This document shows positions 1-15,971 of a DNA stretch of 64,000 nt, piece after piece. Under the pieces are notes generated by a model that was not told the DNA's origin, did no database searches, and was given only the letters and a program-made list of their open reading frames with translations. A program made the translations under genes and the position numbers. The first letter of the stretch is position 1, and the number at the start of each line of letters is the position of its first letter. Source of the stretch: Marmoricola sp. (GTDB lineage Bacteria > Actinomycetota > Actinomycetes > Propionibacteriales > Nocardioidaceae); NCBI GenBank assembly GCA_051954195.1, contig JBQCHZ010000015.1:18357-82356 (forward strand), written 5' to 3'.

Positions 1-860
1 AGGTTCTGGTCCATCGGGTGGTCCGGGAAGTGCTGCCGGGCGTCCTCGGGCGAGTACAGCCGGGCGACCGAGGGTCGGTAGCCCGTGGTGAGCACCTCGC
101 GGAGGATCCGCACGCCGTCGGCGAAGGCGGGCACGAGGAAGCCGTGATAGCGGGCGGTGTCGGGGTAGAACCGGAAGACCTTGACGGTTACCTCGGTGAT
201 GAAGGCGAGCGCGCCCTCGTTGCCGATCACGATGTGGCGGATGTCGGGGCCGGCCGCACGGCGGGGGACGTTCTTGATCCGAACGACGCGCCCGCCGGGC
301 AGGACGGCCTCCAGCCCGACGACCATGTCCTCGATCGCGCCGTACAGCGTGGAGAACTGGCCGATCGAGCGGGTGGCGACCAGCCCGCCCATCTGCGCGA
401 TCGGCTTGGACTGCGGGGAGTGACCGGTGGTGAGGCCCTGCTCGCGCAGCTGGTCCTCCAGCCGCTGCAGCGGTACGCCGCACTGCACCGTGACCATCAT
501 GTCCTCGGCGTTCACCGCGAGGACCGCGTCCATCCGCGACCCGTCGAGCACGATCGCGTCCTCCACGACCGTCTCCAGGCCGCCCTCGGTGCTGGTCCCG
601 CCGGTGCGCGGCACCACCGCGATCCGCTCCCGGTCGGCCAGCTCGAGCACCGCCGCCACCTGCTCGGTCGAGGTCGGGTAGGCGATCACCGCGGGGAAGG
701 GCCCGTCGAAGATGCCGTGCACGGCGGTGTACTTGCGGAAGCGGTCGACGCTGCTGGCGCGCAGGTGCTCGGGGTCGGTGTCCACCTGCTCGGCACCGAG
801 GAGGTCGGTGACGGCCGCGGCGATCTCGTCGCGGGTGAGGGTGGAGCGGGAGGCGACCAT
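1..860 (-). CDS. FAD-binding oxidoreductase, YgcU / alkyl-DHAP synthase / GlcD-like (runs off the left edge of the window)
   Basis: Not in the ORF track as a minus-strand ORF; translated by hand from ATG at 860: MVASRSTLTRDEIAA...VVPRTGGTSTEGGLE...GHSPQSKPIAQMGGLVATRSIGQFSTLYGAIEDMVVGLEAVL...GPDIRHIVIGNEGAL. This is a PCMH-type FAD-binding pattern resembling E. coli YgcU. Confidence 0.85.
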   Translation of the reverse strand, partial: MVASRSTLTRDEIAAAVTDLLGAEQVDTDPEHLRASSVDRFRKYTAVHGIFDGPFPAVIAYPTSTEQVAAVLELADRERIAVVPRTGGTSTEGGLETVVEDAIVLDGSRMDAVLAVNAEDMMVTVQCGVPLQRLEDQLREQGLTTGHSPQSKPIAQMGGLVATRSIGQFSTLYGAIEDMVVGLEAVLPGGRVVRIKNVPRRAAGPDIRHIVIGNEGALAFITEVTVKVFRFYPDTARYHGFLVPAFADGVRILREVLTTGYRPSVARLYSPEDARQHFPDHPMDQN

Positions 861-898
861 GGTGGGAAGTCCTTCGGTGGTGGTGAGGGCAGGAGGGG

Positions 899-1684
899 TC
901 AGCGGACGAGGTAGCCGCCGTCGACCACGAGGACGTGGCCGTTGACGTAGTCCGAGGCCGGCGAGGCGAGGAAGACCAGCGCCCCCATCAGGTCGGCGGG
1001 ATCGCCCCACCGGCCGGCCGGGATGTGCTCGACGATGCGCCGGTTGGCCTCGTCGTCACCGCGGGTGGCGGTGGTGATCGCGGTGGCGAAGTAGCCCGGG
1101 GCGATCGCGTTGACCTGGACGTTCGCGGCGCCCAGCTCGTCGCAGTAGGCCTTGGTGAAGCCCACGATGCCCGCCTTGGTTGCGGCGTAGGCCGGCGACT
1201 GCTGGCCACCCAGGAAGGAGAACAGCGAGGCGATGTTGACGATCTTGCCGCCGCCCTGGGCCACCATCCGGGTGGCCGCGGCGTGGGCGATCTCGAAGGC
1301 AGCGGTGAGGTTGACCGCGATCATCGGGTCCCACTGGGACCGGTCGAAGTCGGCCACGTCGGCGAGCAGGCAGATCCCGGCGGAGTTCACCAGGATGTCC
1401 ACGCCGCCGAGCTCCTCGACGCAGCGCTGCACGGCGGCGGCCGGCGCCCCGGGCTCGGTGAGGTCGACCTGCATGCTCGCGTAGCGACGCCCACGCCCGG
1501 TGACGGCGGCCTTCGTGGCGCCGTCGTCGTGGGTGATGCTCGGGGCGAAGACGTCGGCGCCGGCGGCGGCCAGGGCGACCGAGAAGGCGTGGCCCAGGCC
1601 GGTGTTGCCGCCGGTGACGATCGCCCGCTTGCCGGCCAGGGAGAAGTGGTCGAGCCCGAAGCCCTCCACGGCACTGGTGCTCAT
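899..1684 (-). CDS. SDR family oxidoreductase, YgcW / KduD-like
   Basis: TGGNTGLG, NSAG and YAATK motifs; C-terminus ASDYVNGHVLVVDGGYLVR closely resembles E. coli YgcW from memory; ATGA overlap with the upstream aldehyde dehydrogenase. Confidence 0.9.
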   Translation of the reverse strand: MSTSAVEGFGLDHFSLAGKRAIVTGGNTGLGHAFSVALAAAGADVFAPSITHDDGATKAAVTGRGRRYASMQVDLTEPGAPAAAVQRCVEELGGVDILVNSAGICLLADVADFDRSQWDPMIAVNLTAAFEIAHAAATRMVAQGGGKIVNIASLFSFLGGQQSPAYAATKAGIVGFTKAYCDELGAANVQVNAIAPGYFATAITTATRGDDEANRRIVEHIPAGRWGDPADLMGALVFLASPASDYVNGHVLVVDGGYLVR

Positions 1685-3183
1685 TCCGACACCGCCGCGG
1701 TGGCGTAGGGGTCGCGGATGCCGACGTACACGGTCTCGAGGTACTCCTCGATGCCCTCCGCGCCGCCCTCGCGGCCGAGCCCGGAGGCCTTGACGCCGCC
1801 GAACGGCGCCGCCGGGTTGGACACCACGCCGGTGTTGATGCCGATCATGCCCGACTCCAGCTCCTCGGACAGCCGCAGCGCCCGGTCGAGGTCGCGGGTG
1901 AAGACGAACGCGACCAGGCCGTACTCGCAGCTGTTCGCCGAGCGCACCGCCTCAGCCTCGTCGTCGAAGACCATGACCGGGGCGACCGGCCCGAAGATCT
2001 CCTCGCGGGTGATCTCCATGTCGGGTCGCACGTCGGTGAGCACGGTCGGCGGGTAGAACCACCCCGCTCCGTCGGCCACCGCTCCCCCGGTGAGCACCCG
2101 CGCCCCCGAGGCCACCGCGCCGTCGACCAGGCCGGCGACCTTGTCGCGGAAGCGCTCGGCGACGAGCGGACCGAGCGTGGTGCCGTCCTCGGAGCCGGGG
2201 CCCATCACGAACGACCGCATGCGGGCGGTGAGCTTGGTGGTGAACTCCTCCGCGACCGAGGCGTGCACGAGCATCCGGTTGGCGGCGACGCAAGCCTCGC
2301 CGCCGTTGCGCATCTTCGCGATCACGGCGCCCTCGACCGCCTCGTCGACGTCGGCGTCTGCGCAGACGATGAGCGGCGCGTTGCCGCCGAGCTCCATCGA
2401 CACCTTGAGGACCTGGTCCGACGCCGCGGCCATCCGCCGTCGGCCGACGGCGGTCGACCCGGTGAAGGAGAGCTTGCGGAGCCGGCTGTCGGCGAGCAGC
2501 GGGCCGCTGATCGCGCCGGGGTCGGTGGTGGTGACGACGTTGAGGACGCCCGGCGGGAGGCCGGCCTCCTCCATCACCGCGGTGAACAGCAGCGCGGTGA
2601 GCGGCGTGAGGTCCGCAGGCTTGAGCACCATCGTGCAGCCCGCCGCGATGGCGGGGGCGACCTTGCGGGTCGCCATCGCGATCGGGAAGTTCCACGGCGT
2701 GATCAGCAGGCAGGGGCCGACGGGCCGCTTGCGGACGAGCAGCCGGTTGGCGCCGTCGGGTGCGGTGGCGTAGCGACCGGAGATGCGCGGCGCCTCCTCG
2801 CTGAACCAGCGCAGGAACTCCGCGCCGTAGGCGACCTCGCCCCGGCTCTCGGCCAGCGGCTTGCCCATCTCCAGCGTGATCAGCCGGGCGAAGTCGTCGG
2901 CACGCGCGGTCACCAGCTCGAAGCCACGGCGCAGGATCTCGGCGCGGGCGCGGGCCGGCGTACGGGCCCAGGAGCGCTGGGCGCGGTCCGCCGCGTCGAG
3001 GGCACGGAGTCCGTCGGCGGCCGAGGCGTCGGCGACCGTGGCGAGCACGCGACCGGTGGCCGGGTCGTGGACGTCGAAGCGGCGTCCACCCTCGGCCTCG
3101 ACCCAGGCGCCGTCGATGTGGAGGCCGGTGGGGACCTGGGCGAGGAGGGCGCTCACCGCGTCGGGGAGTACGTCGGCGCTCAT
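1681..3183 (-). CDS. gabD: NAD(P)-dependent succinate-semialdehyde dehydrogenase family aldehyde dehydrogenase
   Basis: ITPWNFP, SFTGST, MELGGNAP, GEACVA (catalytic Cys), EEIFGP, PFGGVKASGLGREG. Start trimmed to ATG 3183 (MSADVLP), which overlaps the upstream stop as ATGA. Confidence 0.85.
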   Translation of the reverse strand: MSADVLPDAVSALLAQVPTGLHIDGAWVEAEGGRRFDVHDPATGRVLATVADASAADGLRALDAADRAQRSWARTPARARAEILRRGFELVTARADDFARLITLEMGKPLAESRGEVAYGAEFLRWFSEEAPRISGRYATAPDGANRLLVRKRPVGPCLLITPWNFPIAMATRKVAPAIAAGCTMVLKPADLTPLTALLFTAVMEEAGLPPGVLNVVTTTDPGAISGPLLADSRLRKLSFTGSTAVGRRRMAAASDQVLKVSMELGGNAPLIVCADADVDEAVEGAVIAKMRNGGEACVAANRMLVHASVAEEFTTKLTARMRSFVMGPGSEDGTTLGPLVAERFRDKVAGLVDGAVASGARVLTGGAVADGAGWFYPPTVLTDVRPDMEITREEIFGPVAPVMVFDDEAEAVRSANSCEYGLVAFVFTRDLDRALRLSEELESGMIGINTGVVSNPAAPFGGVKASGLGREGGAEGIEEYLETVYVGIRDPYATAAVSE

Positions 3184-4130
3184 GCCGGGAGCGCCTGGGG
3201 GGTGGCAGCCGGCAGCCGCAGGGTGGAGCCGAGCAGGTCCTCGTAGAGGTGGAACGGGGTCATCTCCCCGGCGCGGTCGCCGTAGGTGGCACGTGCCCGC
3301 CGGTAGACCTGCTCGACGACCGCCGAGACCTCGACCGGCATCCCCACGGCGGCGGCGAGGTCGGTGGAGAGCCCGAGGTCCTTGCAGGCGAGGGCGATCG
3401 CGAACCCCTCGTCGTAGTCGCCGTGCTCGAGGATCGAGAGCACGTCGCGCTCGAGGAAGTTGCTGTTGGCCGGGCTGGCGATGAGCGCGTCGCGCAGCAC
3501 CCCGAGCTCGACGCCGGCCTTGACCCCGACTGCGAGCACCTCCGCCGTGGCGACGAGGTGGGAGAACCACAGCTGGTTGATCATCAGCTTGACCGCGTAG
3601 CCGGCCCCGTGCGGACCCACGTGCAGGATCCGCTCGGGGTCGCCCATCGCCTCGAACACCGGCCGGAGCCGGGCGACCTGGTCGGCGTCGCCGCCGATGA
3701 AGATCTGCAGGCGACCGGTGGCGGCACCGACCGCCATCCCGCTGACCGGGGCGTCGAGCACGACGATGCCCCGGTCGGCGGTGCGGCGGCGGACGTCGTC
3801 GGCGACGGCGGGCACCGAGGTGGACATGTCGATCCAGGTGCCGCCGTGGGGCAGGCCGGCGAGGATGCCGGCCGGCCCGTTGACGACGTCGTTCACGATC
3901 GCCGGGGTCGGCAGCATCGTGATGACGGTGCCGGTGGCCGCGGCGACCGCGGCGGCGGAGTCGGCGATCTCGGCGCCCAGCGCGGCGTACTCCTCGAGGA
4001 CCTCGGGCCGGGTGTCGTGGACCACGAGCTCGAACCCGGACGCCAGCAGGTTGCGGGTCATGCCCGAGCCCATGCTGCCGAGTCCGATGAAGCCGACGCG
4101 GGTCGGCGTGGCGGTCAGGCTGTGCTGCAT
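3180..4130 (-). CDS. NAD(P)-dependent oxidoreductase, 3-hydroxyisobutyrate / 6-phosphogluconate dehydrogenase family
   Basis: VGFIGLGSMG, LDAPVSG, GAGYAVKLMINQL (catalytic Lys); start ATG 4130 (MQHSLTATP). Confidence 0.9.
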   Translation of the reverse strand: MQHSLTATPTRVGFIGLGSMGSGMTRNLLASGFELVVHDTRPEVLEEYAALGAEIADSAAAVAAATGTVITMLPTPAIVNDVVNGPAGILAGLPHGGTWIDMSTSVPAVADDVRRRTADRGIVVLDAPVSGMAVGAATGRLQIFIGGDADQVARLRPVFEAMGDPERILHVGPHGAGYAVKLMINQLWFSHLVATAEVLAVGVKAGVELGVLRDALIASPANSNFLERDVLSILEHGDYDEGFAIALACKDLGLSTDLAAAVGMPVEVSAVVEQVYRRARATYGDRAGEMTPFHLYEDLLGSTLRLPAATPQALPA

Positions 4131-4168
4131 CTGAGGGATGTTCCTTCGAGGACGGAGGGCACCGGCGG

Positions 4169-4681
4169 TCAGCCGGCGGGTGTGTAGAAGGGGTTGTGGA
4201 CGCCGTCGCGGGCGTCGCGGACGTCCTGGACGGCGGGCAGACCGTGCACGCCGTTGCGCAGTGCCGTGGCGGTGGCCTCCCGGTTGTTGCGGTAGACCTC
4301 CTCCGCGTCGTTCGCCGAGGGGTTCACCCACACCGCGCAGATCAGCACCATCTGGTCGAGGTCGAGACCCTCCAGGGTGCCCTCGGCCAGAGCGTCGGCG
4401 ACGCCGCCGGCGACACCGGCCTGCGCCGGGCCCCAGATCATCAGGCCGTGCTCGTCGCCCTCCGGCGCCGCCTTGGTGACGAAGAGCGTCGGCGGCTTCA
4501 CCGGTACGCCGGGCTGCAGCACGGCCATGAACGGGACATGACCGGGGCTGGGGGTGGCCAGGGCCGTCGCCCACGCCGTCCCCACCGGCCCGAGCCGGCT
4601 TCCGAGGACGGTGTTGATGTGGGCGGCGTTGGCGCCGGAGCCGATGAAGGACTCGCCGACCTGGTAGACGGGGTCGCTCAC
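4169..4681 (-). CDS. fae: Formaldehyde-activating enzyme (Fae) family protein
   Basis: C-terminal part of track ORF 4169..5314; GTG 4681 overlaps the SBP stop (GTGA). QVGESFIGSGANAAHINTVLG, PVKPPTLFVTK, WGPAQAGVAGGVADALAEG, NREAT and HNPF align by eye with Methylobacterium Fae ([40 protein letters not shown], HPF). Confidence 0.85.
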   Translation of the reverse strand: MSDPVYQVGESFIGSGANAAHINTVLGSRLGPVGTAWATALATPSPGHVPFMAVLQPGVPVKPPTLFVTKAAPEGDEHGLMIWGPAQAGVAGGVADALAEGTLEGLDLDQMVLICAVWVNPSANDAEEVYRNNREATATALRNGVHGLPAVQDVRDARDGVHNPFYTPAG

Positions 4682-5610
4682 TTGAGGAGTCCGTGCTGGG
4701 CGAGGAAGTCGTGGGCGATGTCCTGGGGGTCCAGGCCGTCGACGTCCGCCTTGGCGTTGAGCTCCTGCATCTGCTCGGTGGTGAGCAGCGGGGAGAGCTT
4801 GGCGACGATGTCCTTGATCGCGGGGTACTTCTTGACGATGTCGGCCTTCATCGTCAGCGCACCCTGGTAGACCGGGAAGAAGTGCTTGTCGTCGTCCATC
4901 ACCGTGAGGTTGAGGGCCTTGATGCGGCCGTCGGTGGAGAACACCTCGCCGAAGTTGCAGTCCTTGCCCTTCTGGGTGGCGGTGTAGATGACGCCGGTGT
5001 CGAGGAGCTTGACGTTGCTGGCCGGGACGTTGATGTCGTAGGCCTTCTTGACGCCGGGCCAGCCGTCGTCGCGGGTGCTGAACTCGCTCTCGATGCAGAA
5101 GGTCTGGTCGGCGGCGGGCAGCTTGGAGACGTCGCTGAGCGACTTCACGCCGAGCTGCTGGGCCTTGTCGGAGCGGACCGCGAAGGCGTAGGTGTTGTTG
5201 AACGGCGCGGGGTCGATCCAGGCGATGCCGTTCTTGGCGTCGGCAGCCTTGACCGCGTCGAACTGCTTCTGCGGGTCGGTGATCGGCTTGGTGTTCTTCA
5301 GGTACGTGATCCACGCGGTGCCGGTGTACTCCCAGTAGCCGATGAAGTCACCGTTCGTCAGGGCCTGGCGGGTGTTGGCCGAGCCGACGAGCTTGGTGTT
5401 GACGTCGACGTCGGCGCCGTGGGCGTTGAGCAGGTCGCCCGTCATGTAGGCGAGGATGTACTGCTCGGAGAAGTCCTTGGAGCCGATGGTGCCGGTCAGG
5501 CCCTTGAGCTCCTGGCCGGCGCTCCCGGAGCTGGAGCTCCCTCCGCCGCACGCCGCGGTCGACGCGAGCATGGTGAGTCCGAGGAGGGCGGTAACGATCT
5601 TCTTCATCAT
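4678..5610 (-). CDS. Glycine betaine/choline-type ABC transporter substrate-binding lipoprotein (OsmF/OpuCC family)
   Basis: Lipoprotein signal (LASTAAC); IGSKDFSEQYIL, YWEYTGTAW, FNNTYA, EFSTRDDG, GEVFSTDGRI motifs. Confidence 0.9.
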   Translation of the reverse strand: MMKKIVTALLGLTMLASTAACGGGSSSSGSAGQELKGLTGTIGSKDFSEQYILAYMTGDLLNAHGADVDVNTKLVGSANTRQALTNGDFIGYWEYTGTAWITYLKNTKPITDPQKQFDAVKAADAKNGIAWIDPAPFNNTYAFAVRSDKAQQLGVKSLSDVSKLPAADQTFCIESEFSTRDDGWPGVKKAYDINVPASNVKLLDTGVIYTATQKGKDCNFGEVFSTDGRIKALNLTVMDDDKHFFPVYQGALTMKADIVKKYPAIKDIVAKLSPLLTTEQMQELNAKADVDGLDPQDIAHDFLAQHGLLK

Positions 5611-5681
5611 GTTCCTTCAGGGTGGGCGGGACGGAGCAGCCGAGGCGGCACGGGGCCGCCACGACGAGGTGGTGCGGGATC

Positions 5682-6512
5682 TCAGAGGCCGCGCGGGCGC
5701 GCGACCTCCTCGACGAGACCGGCGAGCCAGTCGATGAGGATCGCGATGGCGGCCACCAGGCAGGACCCGACGATGAGCACGGGATACCGCTGGAGCTTGA
5801 GGCCGTTGACGATCATGTCCCCGAGACCGCCGGCGTTGATGAAGGTCGCGATGGTGGCGACCCCGACGGCGAAGACCAGTGAGGTGCGCAGGCCGGCCAG
5901 GATCACCGGCGAGGCGAGGGGGAGCTCGATGCGGCGCAGCACCTGCCAGCGGGTCATCCCCATGCCGCGGGCGGACTCCCGGGTGGCGGCGTCTACCTCG
6001 GCGAGACCGGTGAGGGTGTTGCGCAGCACCGGCAGGAACGCATAGGCGACGAGTGCCACCAGGGCGGTGGTGAACCCGGTCTTCCAGGCGATCGCCAGCA
6101 GGATCACCACGCCGACGGCCGGGGTGGCCTGGCCGACGTTGGCGAGCGCGAGCACCACCGAGCGCAACACCTTCGACCGGGCCTCGTGGATGAGCGTCCC
6201 GATCGGGATGGCGAGCACCGCGACCAGCGCGGCGGCGGCGAAGGACAGCTCGAGGTGCTCGCGCACCCGGGCGATGAGGTAGGTGGTGTTGAGCGTGCGC
6301 TGCTCGATGGAGTCGAGGTGCTGGGACTTCACCCAGAGCATCAGCACGACCAGGGCGATCGCGACGAGCACGGGGGTGAGCAGCACCCGCGTGGGAGTGA
6401 GCCCGGTGCTGGTGGAGCCGAGCAGCATGGACCGCTCGTCGGCCGGGTCCGCCTGCTCGGTGGGGTCGCCGGACGCGGAGCGGCGGCCCTGCGCGGGGGT
6501 CTGGAGGCTCAC
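5682..6512 (-). CDS. Osmoprotectant ABC transporter permease
   Basis: Hydrophobic helices with ESARGMGMTRWQVLRRIELPLA (EAA loop) and GGLGDMI; GTG 6512 overlaps the ATPase stop. Confidence 0.9.
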   Translation of the reverse strand: MSLQTPAQGRRSASGDPTEQADPADERSMLLGSTSTGLTPTRVLLTPVLVAIALVVLMLWVKSQHLDSIEQRTLNTTYLIARVREHLELSFAAAALVAVLAIPIGTLIHEARSKVLRSVVLALANVGQATPAVGVVILLAIAWKTGFTTALVALVAYAFLPVLRNTLTGLAEVDAATRESARGMGMTRWQVLRRIELPLASPVILAGLRTSLVFAVGVATIATFINAGGLGDMIVNGLKLQRYPVLIVGSCLVAAIAILIDWLAGLVEEVARPRGL

Positions 6513-7534
6513 GAGGCGGTCACCTCCTGGCGGGGCGTGCGGGTCAATGCGGCCGAGATGTCGGCGTGCCGGAGCTGACCGAGCGGCACACCACGCTCGT
6601 CGACGACGGTGAGGGCGTCCGCGCCGGTGACCACGAGACGGTCGAGGGCGTCGCGCAGGGTGGCCGTCGCGACGAGGGTCGGCCGCTCGCCGCCCTCGGC
6701 GGGTGCGAGACGAGCGGCGGTGACCGGGATCAGCGCGAGCCGCTTGAGGGCGGCACCGGAGCCGATGAACGAGGCGACGTAGTCGTTGGCCGGCGCGGCG
6801 AGGATGGCGTCGGGGGTGTCGAACTGCTCGATGTGGCTGCGCTCGCTGAGCACCGCGATCCGGTCGCCGAGGCGAACCGCCTCGTCGAAGTCGTGCGTGA
6901 CGAAGATGATCGTCTTGCCGATGTCGGCCTGCAGCCGGAGGAACTCCGCCTGGAGCTTCTCCCGCGTGATCGGGTCGGTGGCACCGAACGGCTCGTCCAT
7001 CAGCATCACCGGCGGGTCGGCGGCCAGTGCCCGGGCGACACCGGCGCGCTGCTGCTGGCCGCCGGAGAGCTGGCGGGGGAAGCGCTTGGCGAAGACGGCC
7101 GGGTCGAGCTGCACGGTCTCCAGCAGCTCCTCGACCCGGGCGTTGGTCCGCTGCTTGGACCACCCGAGCAGCCGCGGCACCGTCGCGATGTTGTCGGCGA
7201 TGGTCATGTGGGGGAACAGGCCGATCTGCTGGATGACGTAGCCGATGTGGCGGCGGAGCTGGTCCGGGGCGAGGCCGAGGACGTCCTGGCCGTCGATGCG
7301 GATCGAGCCGCCGGTGGGCTCGATGATCCGGTTGACCATCTTCATGGTGGTGGTCTTGCCGCAGCCGCTCGGCCCGACGAACATCACCAGCTCGCCGGGG
7401 TTGATCGTCATCGAGAAGCCCTCGACAGCCGGGGCGCTCTGGCCGGGATAGACCTTGGTGACGCCGTCGAGCTCGATGCCGACGCCACCGCTGGTGCCGG
7501 CGGAGGAGAAGAGGTGCTTGGTCTGGTCAGCCAC
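6509..7534 (-). CDS. Osmoprotectant ABC transporter ATP-binding protein (OpuCA/OsmV-like, CBS-like tail)
   Basis: GPSGCGKT, LSGGQQQR, LMDEPFGATDP, FVTHD. Confidence 0.92.
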   Translation of the reverse strand: MADQTKHLFSSAGTSGGVGIELDGVTKVYPGQSAPAVEGFSMTINPGELVMFVGPSGCGKTTTMKMVNRIIEPTGGSIRIDGQDVLGLAPDQLRRHIGYVIQQIGLFPHMTIADNIATVPRLLGWSKQRTNARVEELLETVQLDPAVFAKRFPRQLSGGQQQRAGVARALAADPPVMLMDEPFGATDPITREKLQAEFLRLQADIGKTIIFVTHDFDEAVRLGDRIAVLSERSHIEQFDTPDAILAAPANDYVASFIGSGAALKRLALIPVTAARLAPAEGGERPTLVATATLRDALDRLVVTGADALTVVDERGVPLGQLRHADISAALTRTPRQEVTAS

Positions 7535-8237
7535 GGAGACCCCTCGGGGTGGTGAAGCGGGCGATGAGGATGAAGAGCCCGTCGACGACGAGGGCCAGGA
7601 GCACGACGAGCAGGGTGCCGCTGAGCGCGTAGTTGAGGGCGTTGAGGGAGCCGAGCGAGGACAGCCCCTGGAAGATGTACTGGCCCAGGCCCGGGCCGGC
7701 GACGTACGCGCCGATCGCCGCGATGCCGATCGCGAGCTGGGTGGCGACCCGGATGCCGGTGAGGATGATCGGCCACGCCATCGGCAGCTGCACGCGCAGC
7801 AGCACCGTCGACCGGCTCATCCCCATCCCGCGGGCCGACTCGAGCACGTGGGAGGGCACCTCGCGCAGTCCGGTGACGCTGTTCCGCACGATCGGCAGCA
7901 TCGAGTAGAGGACCAGCGCGGTGATGGTCGGTCCCCAGCCGAGGCCGAACAGCGGGCTGAGGATCGCCAGCAGCGCCAGCGACGGGACGGTGAGGATCAC
8001 CGCGGTCGAGGTGACGGCCAGGGTGCGCCCGATCGGGCGGTCCCAGACCAGCAGGGCGATCGCGATGCTGATCACCGTCGCGATGCCGACCGAGAGGGCG
8101 ACCACGAGGATGTGGTCGACCAGCATCGTGGTGAGGTCGTCGGAGCGGCGCTGGATGAAGGTCTCGAAGCCCTGGAGGCCGTGGTACTCGTCCGTGCTCA
8201 CCGGCCCGAAGGCGGCGGCCGTCAGAGAGATCTCCAT
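7527..8237 (-). CDS. Osmoprotectant ABC transporter permease
   Basis: ESARGMGMSRSTVLLRVQLPMAWP and GPGLGQYIF; ATG 8237 preceded by GGAGG. Confidence 0.9.
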   Translation of the reverse strand: MEISLTAAAFGPVSTDEYHGLQGFETFIQRRSDDLTTMLVDHILVVALSVGIATVISIAIALLVWDRPIGRTLAVTSTAVILTVPSLALLAILSPLFGLGWGPTITALVLYSMLPIVRNSVTGLREVPSHVLESARGMGMSRSTVLLRVQLPMAWPIILTGIRVATQLAIGIAAIGAYVAGPGLGQYIFQGLSSLGSLNALNYALSGTLLVVLLALVVDGLFILIARFTTPRGLRG

Positions 8238-8340
8238 GTCACCTCCTGGTGGGAGCGAGTGGCTGAGCGATGCGGTGGAGTGCGTGACCCGAGTCACGCC
8301 CTGCGTCCTGCGGAGGACCCTGGCACCGGCGGATCACCAC

Positions 8341-8369
8341 GCACAACGACTGTTGTGCATATGGCAACA
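8341..8369. promoter_or_regulatory. Overlapping inverted repeats between divergent genes; candidate IclR operator
   Basis: GCACAAC-GACT-GTTGTGC (8341-8358) overlapping TGTTG-N9-CAACA (8351-8369), in an AT-richer patch between the transporter operon and the IclR gene. Confidence 0.55.
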
Positions 8370-8389
8370 CACGCCGTACGGTGCTCCGC

Positions 8390-9283
8390 ATGCCGCCCCC
8401 TCCAGCCGGTGCCGCCACGGCGCCGTCTCCTCCCCCGCGCCGCCGCAACAGCAGTGGGCTCGCCCGCGACGTGGAGCTGCTCGAGCTGTTCGCGGGCCCC
8501 GAGGCGCAGCGCGACGGTGGCCTGCGGGTGCTCCAGGTCGCGACGATGCTGGGCCGGGACAAGGCGACGGTGTCGCGGGCGCTGGCGACCCTGGCCGACG
8601 CCGGACTGCTGCGCCGCGACGCCGAGCGGCTGACCTACGAGCTGGGGCCGAAGCTCTACGCCCTGGCGGCGCAGACCCAGGAGGCGACGCTGGTCCGGCG
8701 GGCGCAGCCGCTGCTGCGGCAGATGGCCGCCTCGACCCGGGAGACCACGCACCTGTGCGTGCTGCGCGGCGGCAACGTGCTCACCCTGGTGAGCGAGATG
8801 AGCAGCCAGGTGGTCGGCACGACGAGCTGGGCCGGCACCACCACCGCCGCCTGGCGCACCCCGTCGGGACGGGTGCTCGTCAGCGACTGGGACCGCTCCT
8901 CGGTCGCCTCCTGGTACACCACCCACGGCCACGACGCCGCCCTGGTCAACCCGCCCCGCCCGCAGGGGCCCGGCACGTTCTCGCTGGTCACCGACCCGCA
9001 ACCGGACCGCCTCGTGGTGCGCGACCTGGAGACGCTGTACGCCGAGATCGCGCGCATCCGCCAGCGCGGCTACGCCACCTCCGACGCCGAGCTGGAGGAC
9101 GGCGTGGTCGCCGCCTCGGCTCCGGTGCGCGACGCCGCCGGCACGATCGTCGCCGCGGTGAACATCAGCGCCCCGAAGTCCCGGCTCGGGGGCCGGCTGG
9201 ACGAGATGGGACGCTACGTCGCGAAGTGCGCGAAGGTGCTCTCCGAGCACCTCGGCCACCCCGCGGCACCGCCCGTGGGATGA
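8390..9283 (+). CDS. IclR family transcriptional regulator
   Basis: N-terminal HTH (LELLELF...KATVSRALATLADAGLL, YELGPKL) and effector domain (TPSGRVL, RQRGYATSDAELEDGVVAASAPV, AAVNISAP); start 8381 or 8390. Confidence 0.92.
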   Translation: MPPPPAGAATAPSPPPRRRNSSGLARDVELLELFAGPEAQRDGGLRVLQVATMLGRDKATVSRALATLADAGLLRRDAERLTYELGPKLYALAAQTQEATLVRRAQPLLRQMAASTRETTHLCVLRGGNVLTLVSEMSSQVVGTTSWAGTTTAAWRTPSGRVLVSDWDRSSVASWYTTHGHDAALVNPPRPQGPGTFSLVTDPQPDRLVVRDLETLYAEIARIRQRGYATSDAELEDGVVAASAPVRDAAGTIVAAVNISAPKSRLGGRLDEMGRYVAKCAKVLSEHLGHPAAPPVG

Positions 9284-11714: not shown

Positions 11715-13127
11715 ATGAGCGAAGAGTCTTGGCATGAGGCACGGCTCATTCCGACGTCCGGCATCAACGGCGCTGAGGAACAGGAGCGGCGTGCGACCTC
11801 CGCACTCCTTGCTGTGCTCGGTGCCGTCAAGGAGTTCGGACGGAGTTTCGTCAAGCCGTTCGGAGCACCGGCCGGAGCGATGCAGTGCTACATCGAGGTG
11901 CCCTTCACGCTCGGTGAACGGCGGCTCTACCCGGATGGCCTGATCCGCGTCAGACGTGGCTCCCGATCGTGGACCGCGCTGGTCGAGGTGAAGACCGGTT
12001 CTAACCGCCTCGCCACCGAGCAGCTTGAGGCTTATCTAGACATCGCTCGCGAGAACGCGTTTGACGCCGTTATCACCATCTCGAACGAGATCCCGGCGAT
12101 CGAGGGCCAGCACCCCACCAAGGTCGACAAGCGGAAGCTGAAGAAGGTCGCGCTGCATCACCTCTCTTGGTCCAAGGTCCTGGCGGATGCGGTCATGCAG
12201 AAGGAGTTTCGCGGCGTCGCAGACCCTGAGCAGGCGTGGATCCTCGGCGAGCTGATCCGCTACCTGGAGCACCGCAAGTCTGGAGCGCTGGAGTTCGACG
12301 ACATGGGCGAGGCTTGGGTCGGGGTTCGCGATGCCGTAGCTGCCGGCACCCTGCGACCGTCAGACAAGGGCGTGGACGAAGTCGTCGCACGATTCGATGC
12401 ACTGCTGCGCTTCGCCAGCCTTCAGCTCGGCCGCCAGCTCGGCACGGAGGTGGTACCGGCGTTGACGCGCCGCGAGCTGAGCGACCCTGCGTCACGTGCA
12501 CAGGCCATGACGGCCACGTTGTGCGATACCGGTGTCCTGACGGGGGCTATCCGTGTTCCGGACACCGTCGGGCACCTGGTCGTCACCGCAGATCTACGGG
12601 CCGCGAAGGTGACGTGCCACGTCGACGTAGAAGCGCCACGCGAAGGCAAACCCACGACCCGAGTGAATTGGCTGCTGCGTCAATTGAAGTCGGCTCCGGA
12701 CAGCACTCGCGTCGAGTCCTTTGTTGCCCATGGGCGTGGTGCAGCGATGGCGGAGCTTCTCGGCGCCATCCGGGAGAGCTCAGGGGTGCTGGTCGACGAC
12801 TCCGGCCGCGAGATCCGAGCCTTCCGTGGGGCGACCAGCGCTAATCTGGGATCGAAGCGCGGCCGCGGCCGCGGTGCCTTCATCGACTCTGTCCTCAGCG
12901 CCGTGGATGGGTTCTATGCGGACGTGCTTGGGTCGCTCCGTGCCTGGTCTGCCGCGCCTCCGAAGCTCCGGCCGGCCGACGCTGCATCCCAAGGGATCGA
13001 CGAGAAGATTCCACCGGCACTTCCGTCGACGGACTACTCCTCACAGGACGAGCCGTCGAACCAGCCTGCGGAGAGCTCGCCTGCTCCTAGCGAGCAACTG
13101 CCTTCTGCCGCGGAAGATATCGACTGA
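11715..13127 (+). CDS. Hypothetical protein with PD-(D/E)XK nuclease-like motif
   Basis: YPDGLIRV...WTALVEVKTG fits the PD..(D/E)xK catalytic spacing; acidic/Pro-rich low-complexity C-terminus; more A/T-ending codons than flanking genes. Confidence 0.6.
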   Translation: MSEESWHEARLIPTSGINGAEEQERRATSALLAVLGAVKEFGRSFVKPFGAPAGAMQCYIEVPFTLGERRLYPDGLIRVRRGSRSWTALVEVKTGSNRLATEQLEAYLDIARENAFDAVITISNEIPAIEGQHPTKVDKRKLKKVALHHLSWSKVLADAVMQKEFRGVADPEQAWILGELIRYLEHRKSGALEFDDMGEAWVGVRDAVAAGTLRPSDKGVDEVVARFDALLRFASLQLGRQLGTEVVPALTRRELSDPASRAQAMTATLCDTGVLTGAIRVPDTVGHLVVTADLRAAKVTCHVDVEAPREGKPTTRVNWLLRQLKSAPDSTRVESFVAHGRGAAMAELLGAIRESSGVLVDDSGREIRAFRGATSANLGSKRGRGRGAFIDSVLSAVDGFYADVLGSLRAWSAAPPKLRPADAASQGIDEKIPPALPSTDYSSQDEPSNQPAESSPAPSEQLPSAAEDID

Positions 13128-14823: not shown

Positions 14824-15130
14824 ACTTCGTGCTCCGCCCCCGCGCGCGCTCGACCGGGTACTTGCCACGAGTCAGCTCCAGCTTCTCGAGCACGAGATCA
14901 TCGGGATCGGCGCCCAACGTGTCGGCAAGGAGGTAGCAGTAGGTCAACACGTCCGCGAGCTCTTCGCGAACCGAGCTCGAGTCGCTCGGCTCACCCCATT
15001 GGAAGCACTCGAGGAGCTCTCCCGACTCGATCACGACGCTCTTGGCCAGGTTCTCAGCGCTGTGGAACTGACTCCAGTCGCGCTCGTCGCGGAAGGCTCG
15101 AAGCGCCTCGATCGCCGGACGGGTCGCCAT
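14804..15130 (-). CDS. MazG-like nucleotide pyrophosphohydrolase (dCTPase / RS21-C6 type)
   Basis: FRDERDWSQFHSAENLAKSVVIESGELLECFQW...VREELADV, LEKLELTRGKYP; leaderless -10 TAGGGT 7 nt before the ATG. Confidence 0.9.
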   Translation of the reverse strand: MATRPAIEALRAFRDERDWSQFHSAENLAKSVVIESGELLECFQWGEPSDSSSVREELADVLTYCYLLADTLGADPDDLVLEKLELTRGKYPVERARGRSTKYDQLPD

Positions 15131-15200
15131 GTCGCCGACCCTATCGGCGGACGACCTGCACGTGGTGGCTCCGACCTCCCGTGGCGTTTCGGCTCGACAG

Positions 15201-15950
15201 CTAGCGCTGTGCGACCAGTCGGCTCAGCTCATGCTGGTAGTCGCCGTAAGCCGTCCTCAGCCCCGCGCCGGGCCATGCCTCAGGCAGCACGGCATTGGGC
15301 AGCAGCGGATCCTCCGTCAGGTGGCGGACGAGGTGAGCGGCCACGGCGAGGCGGAGAGCTGGCTCCGTTGTGCGTCCGAGTTGGTCGAGCAGCGCCCTCC
15401 CCTTGTCCGCCCACTTCCCCAGATCCCACAGCCACGCAGCCAGCATGGCCGGGTCAGCCACGGGCCGAGCTGAGAAGCAGGACAGCACCGGGTCGACGGC
15501 GTACGGGGGCTCGCGGCGCAGGTTCGCTGGCCGGGTCCAGACGCCCTCCCGAAGCTCGGCCAGGCGGGCGTCGAGAAGCTGTTGCCGCAACGCGGCGCGC
15601 TCCCCCGCCGACCGGCCCGACACGACGACGACCGCCATCTCCCAGGTGCCGTCCCAGTCCTTCTCGGCGTCGGCGACGGCCTCGTCCTGGCGGCGCTGGC
15701 GGGCGACGAGGCGCCTCTCCAGGACGTAGTCGCCGTCCTCGCGGCGGAGGTCGCCGGCGGCGACCGCGCGACTGAGCGCTACGCGGGTAGTGGCCGCGGG
15801 GATGCCGAAGTGCTCACCCGCCGCGACGAGCTGGGCCGGGCTGAGGAGGTCGGGGTGGGCGCCGAGGAGGAGCGAGAGGACGACCGAGCGCGCGGGGAGC
15901 GGCTTCAGGCCGGGCAGAGCCGACGCAACGGTTCTCGACACAACCGTCAT
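15201..15950 (-). CDS. PaaX-family transcriptional regulator (Rv0674-like)
   Basis: C-terminal part of track ORF 15201..16922 from ATG 15950: ARSVVLSLLLG...TTRVALSRAVAAGDL, WDGTW, LAELREGVWTRPANL, DPLLPNAVLPEAWPG. Confidence 0.85.
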   Translation of the reverse strand: MTVVSRTVASALPGLKPLPARSVVLSLLLGAHPDLLSPAQLVAAGEHFGIPAATTRVALSRAVAAGDLRREDGDYVLERRLVARQRRQDEAVADAEKDWDGTWEMAVVVVSGRSAGERAALRQQLLDARLAELREGVWTRPANLRREPPYAVDPVLSCFSARPVADPAMLAAWLWDLGKWADKGRALLDQLGRTTEPALRLAVAAHLVRHLTEDPLLPNAVLPEAWPGAGLRTAYGDYQHELSRLVAQR

Positions 15951-15958
15951 GCTAGACG

Positions 15959-15964
15959 TAACAT
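15959..15964 (+). promoter_or_regulatory. -10 box of leaderless enoyl-CoA hydratase transcript
   Basis: TAACAT (TANNNT) 7 nt upstream of ATG 15972, inside a 21-bp gap between divergent genes. Confidence 0.55.
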
Positions 15965-15971
15965 CGGCTGC

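What the first reader, a model, noticed from the sequence alone, without database searches (positions are those of the whole stretch)
1..8237. Uncharacterised catabolic operon: betaine-type ABC importer + Fae + four oxidoreductases
Seen: nine co-oriented genes, most joined by 4-8 nt overlaps (permease, ATPase, permease, OsmF-type SBP, Fae, HIBADH-family dehydrogenase, GabD-like ALDH, YgcW-like SDR, YgcU-like FAD oxidoreductase), divergent from an IclR gene. Known: OpuC/OsmF transporters import quaternary amines, and N-demethylation releases formaldehyde. Inference: this is an uptake-and-degradation pathway for an N-methylated or related solute rather than osmoprotection. I do not recognise this gene set as any described betaine, carnitine, trigonelline or stachydrine pathway.
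Basis: partly seen in the sequence, partly recalled or inferred. Interest (0 to 1): 0.72.

Follow-up and report, generated by a model that had tools for sequence, protein, structure and literature searches.

The report
Orphan betaine-type uptake and breakdown operon
This is a real, widely conserved ten-gene operon. It joins a betaine-type importer to enzymes of unknown substrate, including counterparts of E. coli's unassigned ygcW, ygcU and ygcE genes and a "formaldehyde-activating enzyme" relative in a bacterium that lacks that enzyme's usual cofactor pathway, so it probably encodes an undescribed nutrient pathway.

Summary
The genes lie on the minus strand. The ninth gene is cut by the window edge. 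A tenth gene, an FGGY kinase, follows it.

The unit is an IclR gene divergent from permease, ATPase, permease, OpuAC lipoprotein, Fae-like, HIBADH-like, SSADH-like ALDH, SDR, FAD enzyme and kinase. It recurs in at least four actinobacterial lineages and in many soil and freshwater contigs.

The last three genes are orthologues of E. coli ygcW (62% identity), ygcU (56%) and ygcE (40%), whose function is unknown. The YgcU-type protein carries the Arg, Tyr and HHH motifs of alkyl-DHAP synthase.

The binding protein keeps the cation-pi tyrosines, and the ATPase has no CBS domains. The ALDH keeps the SSADH carboxylate-binding triad.

The Fae homologue belongs to a separate N/W-type clade. The genome lacks Mch and Ftr. 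No demethylase family is present, so formaldehyde release by N-demethylation is unsupported.

Best reading (inference): uptake and breakdown of a zwitterionic quaternary-ammonium solute that carries a glycerol-like diol. The substrate remains unknown.

The scan has met ygc-type clusters before on other DNA, and those notes reached similar readings. No paper describes this pathway.

The parts
8381..9283 (+). IclR-family regulator, divergent from the operon
   Evidence: HTH_IclR and IclR_C domains. An orthologue at 56-84% identity sits in the same divergent position in related loci.
8238..8380 (.). 143-bp divergent control region with the perfect palindrome GCACAAC-N4-GTTGTGC at 8341-8358 (candidate IclR operator)
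   Evidence: Sequence read. The palindrome is unique in the 64-kb window and recurs with at most 2 mismatches in the same spacer of four Nocardioides loci. No sigma-70 consensus promoter was found.
7527..8237 (-). ABC permease 1 (236 aa)
   Evidence: BPD_transp_1. ATG at 8237 is preceded by GGAGG. Weak NCBIfam matches to ProW and ChoW permeases.
6509..7534 (-). ABC ATPase (341 aa) without CBS domains
   Evidence: ABC_tran only. The best NCBIfam match is the proV subfamily, 312 bits against a cut-off of 327, covering profile positions 7-300 of 363. Overlaps permease 1 by 8 nt.
5682..6512 (-). ABC permease 2 (276 aa)
   Evidence: BPD_transp_1. GTG at 6512 is preceded by GGAGG and overlaps the ATPase gene by 4 nt.
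4678..5610 (-). OpuAC-family substrate-binding lipoprotein (310 aa)
   Evidence: PF04069, 5e-59. OsmF equivalog scores 152 bits against a cut-off of 400. Nearest solved structures are OpuBC-derived sensors, ProX, EgtUC and OpuCC. The cation-pi tyrosines Y95 and Y141 are kept. Twenty pocket-motif residues are invariant in relatives down to 41% identity. N-terminal signal with Cys.
4169..4681 (-). Fae-family protein (170 aa), N/W-type subfamily
   Evidence: PF08714, 2e-49. TIGR03126 scores 147.9 bits against a cut-off of 118. PDB 1Y5Y at 8.8e-26. Only copy in the genome. Separate clade from true Fae, support 100/99. Start overlaps the SBP stop by 4 nt.
3180..4130 (-). HIBADH / beta-hydroxyacid dehydrogenase family enzyme (316 aa)
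   Evidence: NAD_binding_2 and NAD_binding_11. It is below every NCBIfam equivalog cut-off. PDB neighbours are 2-(hydroxymethyl)glutarate dehydrogenase, HIBADH, tartronate semialdehyde reductase, the 6-phosphogluconate-dehydrogenase-type entries 3PEF/3PDU and sulfolactaldehyde reductase.
1681..3183 (-). SSADH/GabD-like aldehyde dehydrogenase (500 aa)
   Evidence: Aldedh, 6e-162. SSADH subfamily scores 550 bits against a cut-off of 646. The top PDB hits are all SSADH, plus the A. baumannii malic semialdehyde dehydrogenase 8S33. Catalytic E264/C298 and the carboxylate triad R173/R292/S455 are conserved (with PMC11353897 read).
899..1684 (-). SDR, orthologue of E. coli YgcW (261 aa)
   Evidence: adh_short. 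KduD-type models are the best match, 314 bits against a cut-off of 369. 62% identity to YgcW over 261 aa.
1..860 (-). 5' part of the YgcU orthologue (alkyl-DHAP-synthase-like FAD protein, 499 aa). It continues left of the window and is followed there by the YgcE-like FGGY kinase (L002:16299-17720).
   Evidence: FAD_binding_4 and FAD-oxidase_C. 56% identity to YgcU, and the kinase is 40% identical to YgcE. Best PDB hit is alkyl-DHAP synthase at 9e-52, against about 1e-33 for GlcD/D-LDH types. Arg, Tyr and HHHGVG motifs align with ADPS.

Best explanation
The locus is an IclR-controlled uptake-and-catabolism operon for a zwitterionic quaternary-ammonium solute (choline/betaine type) that carries a glycerol-like diol or hydroxy-acid part.

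Shown or directly supported:
- An OpuC/OsmF-type ABC importer is present. Its lipoprotein receptor keeps the cation-pi tyrosines, and its ATPase has no osmosensing CBS domains.
- The importer is translationally coupled to six enzymes.
- The last three enzymes are the SDR / flavoenzyme / FGGY-kinase triad orthologous to E. coli YgcW/YgcU/YgcE.

Inferred mechanism:
1. The kinase phosphorylates a primary hydroxyl of the glycerol-like part.
2. The SDR oxidises the neighbouring secondary hydroxyl, giving a 1-substituted dihydroxyacetone-phosphate-like ketone.
3. The YgcU-type flavoenzyme has the catalytic Arg, Tyr and HHH loop of alkyl-DHAP synthase. It removes or exchanges the substituent on the carbon next to the ketone, or oxidises the polyol phosphate. 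This feeds a triose phosphate into central metabolism.
4. The HIBADH-like dehydrogenase and the SSADH-like ALDH, whose carboxylate-binding triad is intact, convert a 4-hydroxy-acid fragment through its aldehyde to a dicarboxylate.
5. The Fae-like protein does not activate formaldehyde with tetrahydromethanopterin. Like true Fae it probably accelerates an otherwise spontaneous aldehyde-level step, such as hemiaminal or hemiacetal breakdown, hydration or amine elimination, next to these aldehyde enzymes.

The exact substrate is not known.
For: Operon anatomy and coupling.

Conservation as a unit across actinobacterial families and metagenomes.

Receptor:
- OpuAC domain; the closest structures are choline, betaine and ergothioneine binders.
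- Tyr65 and Tyr357 of the OpuBC scaffold make the cation-pi contacts (PMC8820738). They align with Y95 and Y141.
- Twenty pocket-motif residues are invariant down to 41% identity.
- The ATPase has no CBS domain.

Triad:
- 62, 56 and 40% identity to E. coli YgcW, YgcU and YgcE.
- The three genes stay together in G264, G335 and most of 80 metagenome loci (67 carry all three matches).
- The E. coli and several metagenome versions carry a GlpP-like antiterminator.
- One contig couples the same type of importer to the triad alone (L112).

YgcU type:
- ADPS is the best structural relative.
- The Arg, Tyr and HHH motifs are conserved in all orthologues.

ALDH: SSADH-type triad R173/R292/S455.

Fae-like:
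- No Mch or Ftr in a 99.8%-complete genome.
- Distinct N/W clade.
- Its neighbours elsewhere are HIBADH, AKR, GabD-like ALDH and MR_MLE.
- It is missing from some otherwise identical operons (L100 and L145), as expected for a rate-enhancing accessory.
Against: - No ligand, transcript or enzyme datum exists for any member.
- The roles of the ADPS motifs and of the ProX-like K/T/R positions are recalled from memory, not tested here.
- E. coli and many other carriers of the triad use MFS carriers or have no adjacent transporter, so the triad's substrate need not be cationic.
- ETF genes beside ygcU in E. coli suggest a net dehydrogenase rather than ADPS-like group exchange.
- Rhodoluna has the same receptor pocket but no YgcU anywhere in its genome. 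The triad is therefore not obligatory for using the imported solute.
- The composition of the enzyme block varies: ALDH, Fae or MR_MLE may be present or absent. This weakens any single linear pathway.
Confidence: 0.42

Rival explanations
1. A C4-betaine pathway (carnitine, gamma-butyrobetaine or crotonobetaine) without an oxygenase. The solute is oxidised or dehydrated and trimethylamine is released at an aldehyde or hemiaminal stage by the Fae-like protein. The resulting succinic or malic semialdehyde is oxidised by the SSADH-like ALDH or reduced by the HIBADH-like enzyme.
For: - The receptor resembles carnitine, choline and betaine binders.
- The ALDH is close to the A. baumannii malic semialdehyde dehydrogenase of the carnitine pathway (8S33, 1.4e-136) and keeps the same carboxylate triad.
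- HIBADH-family enzymes act on beta-hydroxy acids; use of gamma-hydroxy acids by this family is from my own knowledge.
- In G384 a Fae-like gene sits between an arginase-family gene and GabD/GabT genes, a succinic-semialdehyde context.
- Rhodoluna has the same receptor pocket with an enolase-superfamily enzyme that could dehydrate a beta-hydroxy acid.
Against: - It gives no role to the always-linked FGGY kinase and ADPS-like flavoenzyme.
- No carnitine dehydrogenase (3HCDH type), BKACE, CntAB or Cai genes are present.
- The ALDH is absent from several otherwise identical operons.
Confidence: 0.15
2. A neutral polyol or sugar-acid pathway. The OpuAC-fold receptor has been recruited for an uncharged or acidic carbohydrate, and the enzymes form a tetritol-, glycerol- or tetronate-type route.
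For: - The triad in E. coli goes with sugar-type MFS carriers and is CRP-activated (PMC8085971).
- The SDR is KduD-like, and the kinase is xylulokinase- or glycerol-kinase-like.
- The HIBADH resembles tartronate semialdehyde reductase and L-threonate dehydrogenase.
- Variant loci add an acid-sugar-dehydratase-like MR_MLE and an HpcH-family lyase.
- A YgcS-like MFS carrier replaces the ABC system in L100, L122 and L145.
Against: - The receptor keeps both cation-pi tyrosines and a strictly invariant pocket typical of methylated-onium binders.
- No enzyme reaches any equivalog cut-off of a known sugar-acid pathway.
- No aldolase or isomerase is present in the operon.
Confidence: 0.17
3. An N-methylated solute is demethylated, and the formaldehyde released is captured by the Fae homologue using a carrier other than tetrahydromethanopterin, for example tetrahydrofolate or mycothiol.
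For: - The protein passes the Pfam and TIGR03126 cut-offs and keeps the conserved His.
- Archaeal Fae-Hps fusions show that Fae can serve sugar-phosphate C1 cleavage (NF009833 hit).
- Unchecked scan notes report Fae homologues next to 2OG oxygenases in other genomes.
Against: - No demethylase family is in the operon.
- No Mch or Ftr is in the genome.
- The protein lies in a clade separated from true Fae with 100/99 support and with coupled D-to-N and F-to-W changes.
- Partners of this clade are aldehyde reductases, ALDHs and MR_MLE enzymes, not C1 enzymes.
- One genome (G145) holds a true Fae beside Mch and, separately, an N/W-type copy beside MR_MLE and HIBADH.
Confidence: 0.1
4. The transporter is an ordinary osmoprotectant importer, and the downstream enzymes are an unrelated operon that happens to be adjacent.
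For: The family's best-known members import compatible solutes.
Against: - The SBP stop and the Fae start overlap by 4 nt.
- Importer and enzymes stay together, in two different gene orders, across families.
- There is a single divergent IclR gene with a conserved operator-like palindrome.
- There are no CBS domains.
Confidence: 0.03

Closest known systems
E. coli K-12 ygc cluster (ygcW, ygcU, yqcE-ygcE, with ygcS, ygcQR, ygcNO, ygcP); function unassigned
   Same: The SDR, FAD enzyme and FGGY kinase are full-length orthologues at 62, 56 and 40% identity. The three genes travel together in every lineage examined.
   Different: E. coli uses MFS carriers, its own ETF/ETF-QO set and a GlpP-like antiterminator. 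Here there is an OpuAC-type ABC importer, an IclR regulator and no ETF, plus the Fae-like, HIBADH-like and SSADH-like genes.
OpuC / OpuB / OsmF(YehZYXW) / ProX / EgtUV compatible-solute ABC importers
   Same: Same architecture of two permeases, one ATPase and an OpuAC-fold receptor. The aromatic-cage tyrosines are conserved.
   Different: It is below the OsmF equivalog cut-off (152 against 400 bits). The ATPase has no CBS domains. The importer is embedded in a catabolic operon. The ligand is unknown.
Formaldehyde-activating enzyme Fae (M. extorquens, PDB 1Y5Y)
   Same: Same fold family, same length, and the conserved GE..G....AH, GH, KP.T and GPAQ.GVA motifs.
   Different: It lies in a separate N/W-type clade: AHIN instead of AHID, WGPAQ instead of FGPAQ, and NPxA instead of HWEA. 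The host has no H4MPT pathway markers. Its genomic partners are aldehyde enzymes.
Alkyl-dihydroxyacetone-phosphate synthase (ADPS/AGPS; PDB 2UUU, 4BBY)
   Same: Best structural relative of the FAD enzyme. The aligned Arg, the SHxY tyrosine and the HHHGVG loop are conserved.
   Different: It lacks the roughly 130-200-residue N-terminal extension of ADPS, since the alignment starts at ADPS residue 138 or 199. It sits in a soluble catabolic context with a kinase and an SDR. In E. coli it is partnered with ETF, which suggests net oxidation.
Succinic / malic semialdehyde dehydrogenases (GabD; A. baumannii MSA-DH of the carnitine pathway)
   Same: E-values of 1e-136 to 1e-146. Catalytic Glu and Cys, and the Arg/Arg/Ser carboxylate triad, are conserved.
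   Different: It is below the SSADH subfamily cut-off (550 against 646 bits). No CntAB oxygenase or GABA transaminase is nearby.
Sulfoglycolysis end steps (YihU sulfolactaldehyde reductase; GabD-like SLA dehydrogenase)
   Same: The same pair of families, a HIBADH-type reductase and a GabD-like ALDH, acts on one charged three- or four-carbon aldehyde. Resemblance in logic only (SLA reductase model at 164 bits).
   Different: No sulfoquinovose genes are present. The model is below its cut-off of 348 bits. The receptor is of the onium-binding type.

Membership tests
OpuC/OsmF-type compatible-solute ABC importer | OpuAC-fold receptor, two BPD_transp_1 permeases and one ATPase | tested here: met
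   Pfam hits; gene order perm-ATPase-perm-SBP.
OpuC/OsmF-type compatible-solute ABC importer | Aromatic cage that binds the methylated onium head group | tested here: met
   Y95 and Y141 align with Tyr65 and Tyr357 of the OpuBC scaffold (PMC8820738 read). Y248 lies in the conserved FFPxY motif. All are invariant in relatives. The mapping of Tyr357 allows for a 2-residue numbering offset between constructs.
OpuC/OsmF-type compatible-solute ABC importer | Score above the OsmF (NF049931) equivalog cut-off | tested here: not met
   152.4 bits against a cut-off of 400.
OpuC/OsmF-type compatible-solute ABC importer | Tandem CBS domains on the ATPase (osmosensing OpuA/OpuC/ProV type) | tested here: not met
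   Only ABC_tran (and a weak AAA_30) in the 341-aa ATPase.
OpuC/OsmF-type compatible-solute ABC importer | Binds and imports betaines or choline | not testable with these tools
   Needs ITC or thermal shift, and uptake assays.
Formaldehyde-activating enzyme (Fae, H4MPT hydro-lyase) | Matches PF08714 and TIGR03126 above their cut-offs | tested here: met
   168 bits against 27; 147.9 bits against 118.05.
Formaldehyde-activating enzyme (Fae, H4MPT hydro-lyase) | Host has the tetrahydromethanopterin-linked C1 pathway (Mch, Ftr/Fhc) | tested here: not met
   No PF02289 or PF01913 match in the 99.8%-complete genome, while the archaeal control genomes match.
Formaldehyde-activating enzyme (Fae, H4MPT hydro-lyase) | Groups with bona fide Fae in a tree | tested here: not met
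   A split with 100/99 support separates the D/F type, which includes the copy beside Mch, from the N/W type that holds this protein.
Formaldehyde-activating enzyme (Fae, H4MPT hydro-lyase) | Accelerates formaldehyde + H4MPT condensation | not testable with these tools
   Needs an enzyme assay.
E. coli YgcW/YgcU/YgcE module | Full-length orthology of all three proteins | tested here: met
   62% over 261 aa, 56% over 482 aa and 40% over 473 aa.
E. coli YgcW/YgcU/YgcE module | The three genes are kept together across lineages | tested here: met
   Seen in E. coli, G264 and G335; 67 of 80 metagenome loci carry SDR, YgcU and FGGY matches.
Alkyl-DHAP synthase (ADPS) | FAD_binding_4 and FAD-oxidase_C with the Arg, Tyr and HHH catalytic motifs | tested here: met
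   Alignments; conservation in seven relatives. The catalytic roles of these residues are recalled from the ADPS literature, not tested.
Alkyl-DHAP synthase (ADPS) | N-terminal extension and full length of about 580-660 aa | tested here: not met
   499 aa; the alignment begins at ADPS residue 138 (2UUU) or 199 (4BBY).
Alkyl-DHAP synthase (ADPS) | Exchanges acyl for alkyl on DHAP | not testable with these tools
   Needs an enzyme assay.
Succinate-semialdehyde dehydrogenase (GabD) | Score above the TIGR01780 / PRK11241 cut-offs | tested here: not met
   549.6 against 646.35 bits; 530 against 828 bits.
Succinate-semialdehyde dehydrogenase (GabD) | Arg/Arg/Ser triad that binds the distal carboxylate | tested here: met
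   R173, R292 and S455 lie at the spacing from C298 given for MSA-DH (Arg166, Arg284, Ser447, Cys290) and human SSADH.
Known betaine/choline/carnitine catabolic pathways (GbcAB/Dgc/Sox, BetAB/GbsAB, CDH+BKACE, CntAB, Cai, HpbD route, Tgn, TmpAB) | Signature enzyme present in the operon: Rieske oxygenase, DAO/GcvT demethylase, GMC or Fe-ADH choline dehydrogenase, 3HCDH carnitine dehydrogenase, BKACE, MLE-type epimerase or TauD-type oxygenase | tested here: not met
   None of these Pfam families appears among the ten operon proteins.

The most novel reading that the evidence does not exclude
The operon degrades the deacylated head group of betaine lipids: glyceryl-N,N,N-trimethylhomoserine from DGTS, or a similar glyceryl-ether betaine.

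Proposed steps:
1. The betaine end is recognised by the OpuAC receptor.
2. The kinase and the SDR turn the glycerol end into a 1-O-alkyl-DHAP.
3. The YgcU flavoenzyme runs alkyl-DHAP-synthase chemistry in the catabolic direction and breaks the otherwise non-hydrolysable ether. This yields DHAP and homoserine betaine.
4. The HIBADH-like and SSADH-like enzymes oxidise homoserine betaine to a trimethylammonio-dicarboxylate.
5. Trimethylamine leaves at the aldehyde or acid stage, helped by the Fae-like protein and, where present, the enolase-superfamily enzyme.

If true, this would assign a function to E. coli ygcWUE (cleavage of glycerol ethers), define a non-methylotrophic function for half of the Fae family, and reveal a new route of trimethylamine formation from algal and bacterial lipids.
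Probability: 0.12. Interest if true: 0.85.

Novelty: new variant of a known kind. Interest (0 to 1): 0.62.

Why it matters
Three open items meet in one conserved operon.
- The substrate of the ygcW/ygcU/ygcE genes is among the unassigned catabolic functions of E. coli K-12.
- Fae-family proteins occur in organisms without tetrahydromethanopterin. About half of the full-length representatives examined carry the N/W signature.
- The natural ligand of the non-osmoregulated OsmF/YehZ-like branch of betaine receptors is unknown.

Here the importer gives an experimental handle that the E. coli cluster lacks. A soluble lipoprotein receptor with an invariant pocket can be screened against a short list of quaternary-ammonium compounds.

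The operon is common in soil and freshwater Actinomycetota. If trimethylamine is a product, the pathway would bear on carbon and nitrogen turnover of choline- and betaine-type solutes, and possibly on trimethylamine formation.

Tried and rejected
1. Plus-strand reading of the region. GC3 frame analysis shows the genes are on the minus strand.

2. A first Pfam query for Fae was in the wrong frame and found nothing. It was corrected.

3. Literature. No paper assigns a function to ygcU/W/E or to Fae homologues in Actinobacteria. No catabolic route for homoserine betaine or betaine-lipid head groups was found. The Fae structure paper is not held, so the H4MPT-contact residues could not be compared.

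4. HpbD-type betaine epimerase idea for the Rhodoluna MR_MLE. Rejected, because it is of the mandelate-racemase / acid-sugar-dehydratase type.

5. GBBH-like oxygenase next to the triad in G335 as a second link to trimethylammonium compounds. Weakened, because HIBADH / class II aldolase / GBBH-like is a module of its own that occurs elsewhere without the triad.

6. The idea that the triad and the MR_MLE block are strict alternatives. Rejected, because L151 and L161 carry both.

7. The large soil group of triad-only loci has no adjacent transporter. Its neighbours are MarR, ALDH, epimerase and others, which is uninformative.

8. YgcU orthologues are rare in sampled genomes: 2 of 400 other Actinomycetota and 2 of 401 Pseudomonadota. 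Broad context statistics were therefore not possible from genomes alone.

9. No sigma-70 consensus promoter or intrinsic terminator was found. This is expected for a 72% G+C actinobacterium.

11. No structure prediction was run, because no ligand docking or coordinate inspection is available to exploit it.

Full report
**1. What is in the sequence**

The window is 72% G+C. Third-position G+C places the genes of 1-8300 on the minus strand.

With start codons chosen by ribosome-binding sites and by the lengths of orthologues, the genes are:
- permease, 7527-8237
- ABC ATPase, 6509-7534
- permease, 5682-6512
- OpuAC-domain receptor, 4678-5610
- Fae-family protein, 4169-4681
- HIBADH-family dehydrogenase, 3180-4130
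- aldehyde dehydrogenase, 1681-3183
- SDR, 899-1684
- FAD_binding_4/FAD-oxidase_C protein, starting at 860

Five of the eight junctions inside the window are overlaps of 4 or 8 nt.

The window is contig C15:18357-82356 of a 3.29-Mb genome that is 99.8% complete. I read the contig to the left. The FAD protein is 499 aa. It is followed, with a 4-nt overlap, by a tenth gene, an FGGY-family kinase of 473 aa. A convergent LuxR-family gene then ends the unit.

An IclR gene (8381-9283) is divergent across 143 bp. That spacer holds a perfect palindrome, GCACAAC-N4-GTTGTGC, at 8341-8358. The palindrome is unique in the window and recurs in the same place in four Nocardioides loci. It is a candidate operator.

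The exceptions are the strand, the truncated ninth gene and the missed tenth gene.

**2. Conservation**

The closest Fae homologues are named Marmoricola and Nocardioides, so the organism is probably a member of the Nocardioidaceae.

The whole order, IclR divergent from perm-ATPase-perm-SBP-Fae-HIBADH-ALDH-SDR-FAD-FGGY, recurs in:
- Nocardioides spp.
- Terrabacter aeriphilus
- a Rathayibacter isolate
- a Microbacterium, with the transporter moved behind the enzymes
- a Nanopelagicales MAG
- an organism seen on contigs in 334 blocks of the collection

A scan of metagenome contigs with the FAD enzyme gave 80 loci at 63-82% identity.

These loci show that the block is modular:
- The ALDH is missing in L087, L088 and L089.
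- The Fae gene is missing in L100 and L145.
- A YgcS-like MFS carrier replaces the ABC system in L100, L122 and L145.
- L112 couples the ABC system to the SDR/FAD/kinase trio alone.
- L151 and L161 add an enolase-superfamily (MR_MLE) gene.
- Rhodoluna planktonica keeps the IclR gene, the importer and Fae. These are followed by MR_MLE, two ALDHs, HIBADH, an iron alcohol dehydrogenase and an HpcH-family lyase. It has no YgcU homologue anywhere in its 1.4-Mb genome.

In sampled reference genomes the parts are rare. Besides the window's own genome, a Fae homologue occurs in 11 of 400 Actinomycetota, and a true YgcU orthologue in 2 of 400 Actinomycetota and 2 of 401 Pseudomonadota.

**3. The importer**

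The receptor has a signal peptide with a lipobox-like Cys. Its nearest solved relatives are choline-, betaine-, carnitine- and ergothioneine-binding proteins: OpuBC-derived sensors, ProX, EgtUC and OpuCC, at E = 1e-31 to 1e-45.

In the OpuBC scaffold, Tyr65 and Tyr357 make the cation-pi contacts with choline, acetylcholine and drugs (PMC8820738). In the printed alignment these are the tyrosines of the VEYTGT and FNNTY motifs. They correspond to Y95 and Y141 here.

Twenty residues of these and neighbouring motifs are invariant in all receptors linked to this gene set. The set includes K45, T98 and R180. The invariance holds in the L112 receptor (41% identity overall) and in the Rhodoluna one. 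From memory, K45, T98 and R180 match the carboxylate binders of A. fulgidus ProX; I did not test this here. The ligand, or at least its bound end, is therefore probably the same throughout. It probably carries a methylated onium group and an anionic group.

The protein is not an OsmF equivalog (152 bits against a cut-off of 400). The ATPase shows no CBS domains. Together with the translational coupling to enzymes, this argues for nutrient uptake rather than osmoprotection.

**4. The last three genes**

BLASTP against E. coli K-12 (locus fetched) gives 62% identity to YgcW, 56% to YgcU and 40% to YgcE, all full length.

The E. coli cluster also holds two MFS carriers, an ETF/ETF-QO set and a GlpP-like antiterminator. 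I found no paper that assigns it a function. It is listed as CRP-activated, and a ygcU deletion had no effect in one D-serine study.

The FAD protein's best structural relative is alkyl-DHAP synthase, at 9e-52. GlcD and D-lactate dehydrogenase types score about 1e-33. The alignment shows three conserved elements: the arginine of the ...RLY... segment, the tyrosine of SHSY, and the loop GGSxVHHHG(V/I)G. These are present in the window protein, E. coli YgcU and five other relatives. From my memory of the ADPS literature, they are the catalytic Arg, Tyr and HHH loop. The ADPS N-terminal extension is absent.

A kinase, an SDR and a flavoenzyme shaped for a DHAP-like ketone, found with a GlpP-type regulator in other lineages, suggest one sequence. 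A primary hydroxyl of a glycerol-like unit is phosphorylated. The neighbouring hydroxyl is oxidised. The flavoenzyme then acts on the carbon next to the ketone, or oxidises the polyol phosphate. This is inference.

Earlier notes of this scan on ygc-type clusters in other genomes reached the same 'substituted glycerol' reading, and in two cases a 'betaine-like' reading. I read them after writing my own note. They are unchecked and do not count as independent evidence.

**5. HIBADH-like and ALDH**

The dehydrogenase is below every equivalog cut-off. Its structural neighbours oxidise or reduce 3- or 4-carbon hydroxy acids and their aldehydes.

The ALDH is closest to succinic semialdehyde dehydrogenases and to the malic semialdehyde dehydrogenase of the Acinetobacter carnitine pathway. 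Counting from the catalytic Cys298, residues R173, R292 and S455 sit at the spacing of the Arg/Arg/Ser triad. That triad binds the distal carboxylate in MSA-DH and in human SSADH (PMC11353897). Its substrate is therefore very probably a 4-oxobutanoate-type aldehyde acid.

**6. The Fae homologue**

It passes the family cut-offs and aligns end to end with M. extorquens Fae. However, the genome has no Mch or Ftr, and this is the only Fae copy.

Among the representatives of the whole family (915 clusters at E <= 0.001) two signatures stand out. One has His-x-Asp with Phe before GPAQ. The other has His-x-Asn with Trp before GPAQ.

A maximum-likelihood tree separates the two types with 100/99 support. 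One caveat applies: the two groups were labelled by two of the 171 columns used for the tree.

The D/F group contains a copy that lies next to Mch in genome G145. The same genome has a second, N/W-type copy next to MR_MLE and HIBADH genes. The window's protein is N/W type.

Neighbours of N/W-type genes elsewhere are:
- HIBADH
- an aldo-keto reductase and a GabD-like ALDH (Rhizobium)
- GabD and GabT with an arginase-family gene
- MR_MLE with SBP_bac_5 transporters

The constant partner is an enzyme that makes or consumes an aldehyde. The gene is dispensable in some operons.

I therefore read it as an accessory that speeds an aldehyde-level step, as true Fae speeds a spontaneous condensation. 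Which step this is remains unknown.

**7. Against the demethylation model**

None of the ten proteins belongs to a family known to demethylate amines. Formaldehyde as an intermediate cannot be excluded, but nothing here requires it.

**8. Synthesis**

The best-supported statement is that this is a dedicated uptake-and-breakdown operon for a zwitterionic onium compound, built around the unassigned ygcWUE module.

The most economical chemical reading is a two-part solute. A glycerol-like part goes to triose phosphate through the trio. A 4-hydroxy-acid part is oxidised by the HIBADH-like and SSADH-like enzymes.

This reading would explain three observations:
- Some organisms keep only the trio (L112).
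- Rhodoluna keeps only the other block.
- Both kinds of organism have the same receptor pocket.

Deacylated betaine lipid (glyceryl-trimethylhomoserine) fits every part, including the need for ADPS-type chemistry to break an ether. I hold it at about 12%, because no direct evidence exists. Glycerophosphocholine, carnitine-type betaines and a neutral polyol remain possible.

**9. Limits**

No binding or enzyme data exist. The residue roles for ADPS and ProX come from memory. The substrate is unknown.

Noticed in passing
window 8341-8358: Perfect palindrome GCACAAC-GACT-GTTGTGC in the IclR/operon spacer. It is unique in the window and conserved with at most 2 mismatches in four Nocardioides loci. 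It is a candidate IclR operator.
   Followed up: partly
L043 (G145:C4:404279-424200) and L044 (G145:C2:114137-134100): One genome of the same phylum carries a true (D/F-type) Fae about 11 kb from an Mch gene, so it has tetrahydromethanopterin-linked C1 genes. It also carries a separate N/W-type Fae next to MR_MLE and HIBADH under a LysR gene.
   Followed up: partly
L080:4959-7752; L084:7354-10122; L086:7348-10155: A conserved three-gene module: a HIBADH-like gene, a class II aldolase and a GBBH/TauD-type 2OG dioxygenase with the GBBH-like N-terminal domain. It occurs in aquatic Actinomycetota. In G335 it lies directly upstream of the YgcW/E/U trio. Its function is unknown.
   Followed up: partly
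L038 (G384:C1:3263350-3283300): A cluster of alanine dehydrogenase, amino-acid permease, arginase-family enzyme, SSF transporter, N/W-type Fae, GabD-like ALDH and class-III aminotransferase. Here a Fae-like gene sits inside a guanidino- or amino-acid to succinic-semialdehyde context.
   Followed up: no
L021:8973-12952 (Rhizobium sp.): An aldo-keto reductase, N/W-type Fae, GabD-like ALDH and LysR, followed by an SBP_bac_5 ABC system, a second ALDH and an MR_MLE gene. This is a proteobacterial version of the Fae-plus-aldehyde-enzyme pairing.
   Followed up: no
L042, L044-L046: The most distant Fae-like clade (33-40% identity) is fused in operons with MR_MLE genes and Dpp/Opp-type (SBP_bac_5) transporters, LysR regulators, a zinc ADH and a luciferase-like monooxygenase.
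   Followed up: partly
L002:12203-16276 (contig left of the window): Left of the operon lie a LuxR-family regulator (15068-16276, +), an unassigned 254-aa ORF, an NYN-domain protein (12873-14015, -) and a TetR regulator (12203-12823, -). These were not examined further.
   Followed up: no
L161 (metagenome contig Ga0308160_10002726): One contig places the importer/Fae/MR_MLE/HIBADH/ALDH/IclR block next to a complete ygc-type block: a YqcE-like MFS carrier, SDR, YgcU, FGGY kinase and a GlpP-like antiterminator. The two blocks can therefore be separate units with separate regulators.
   Followed up: no
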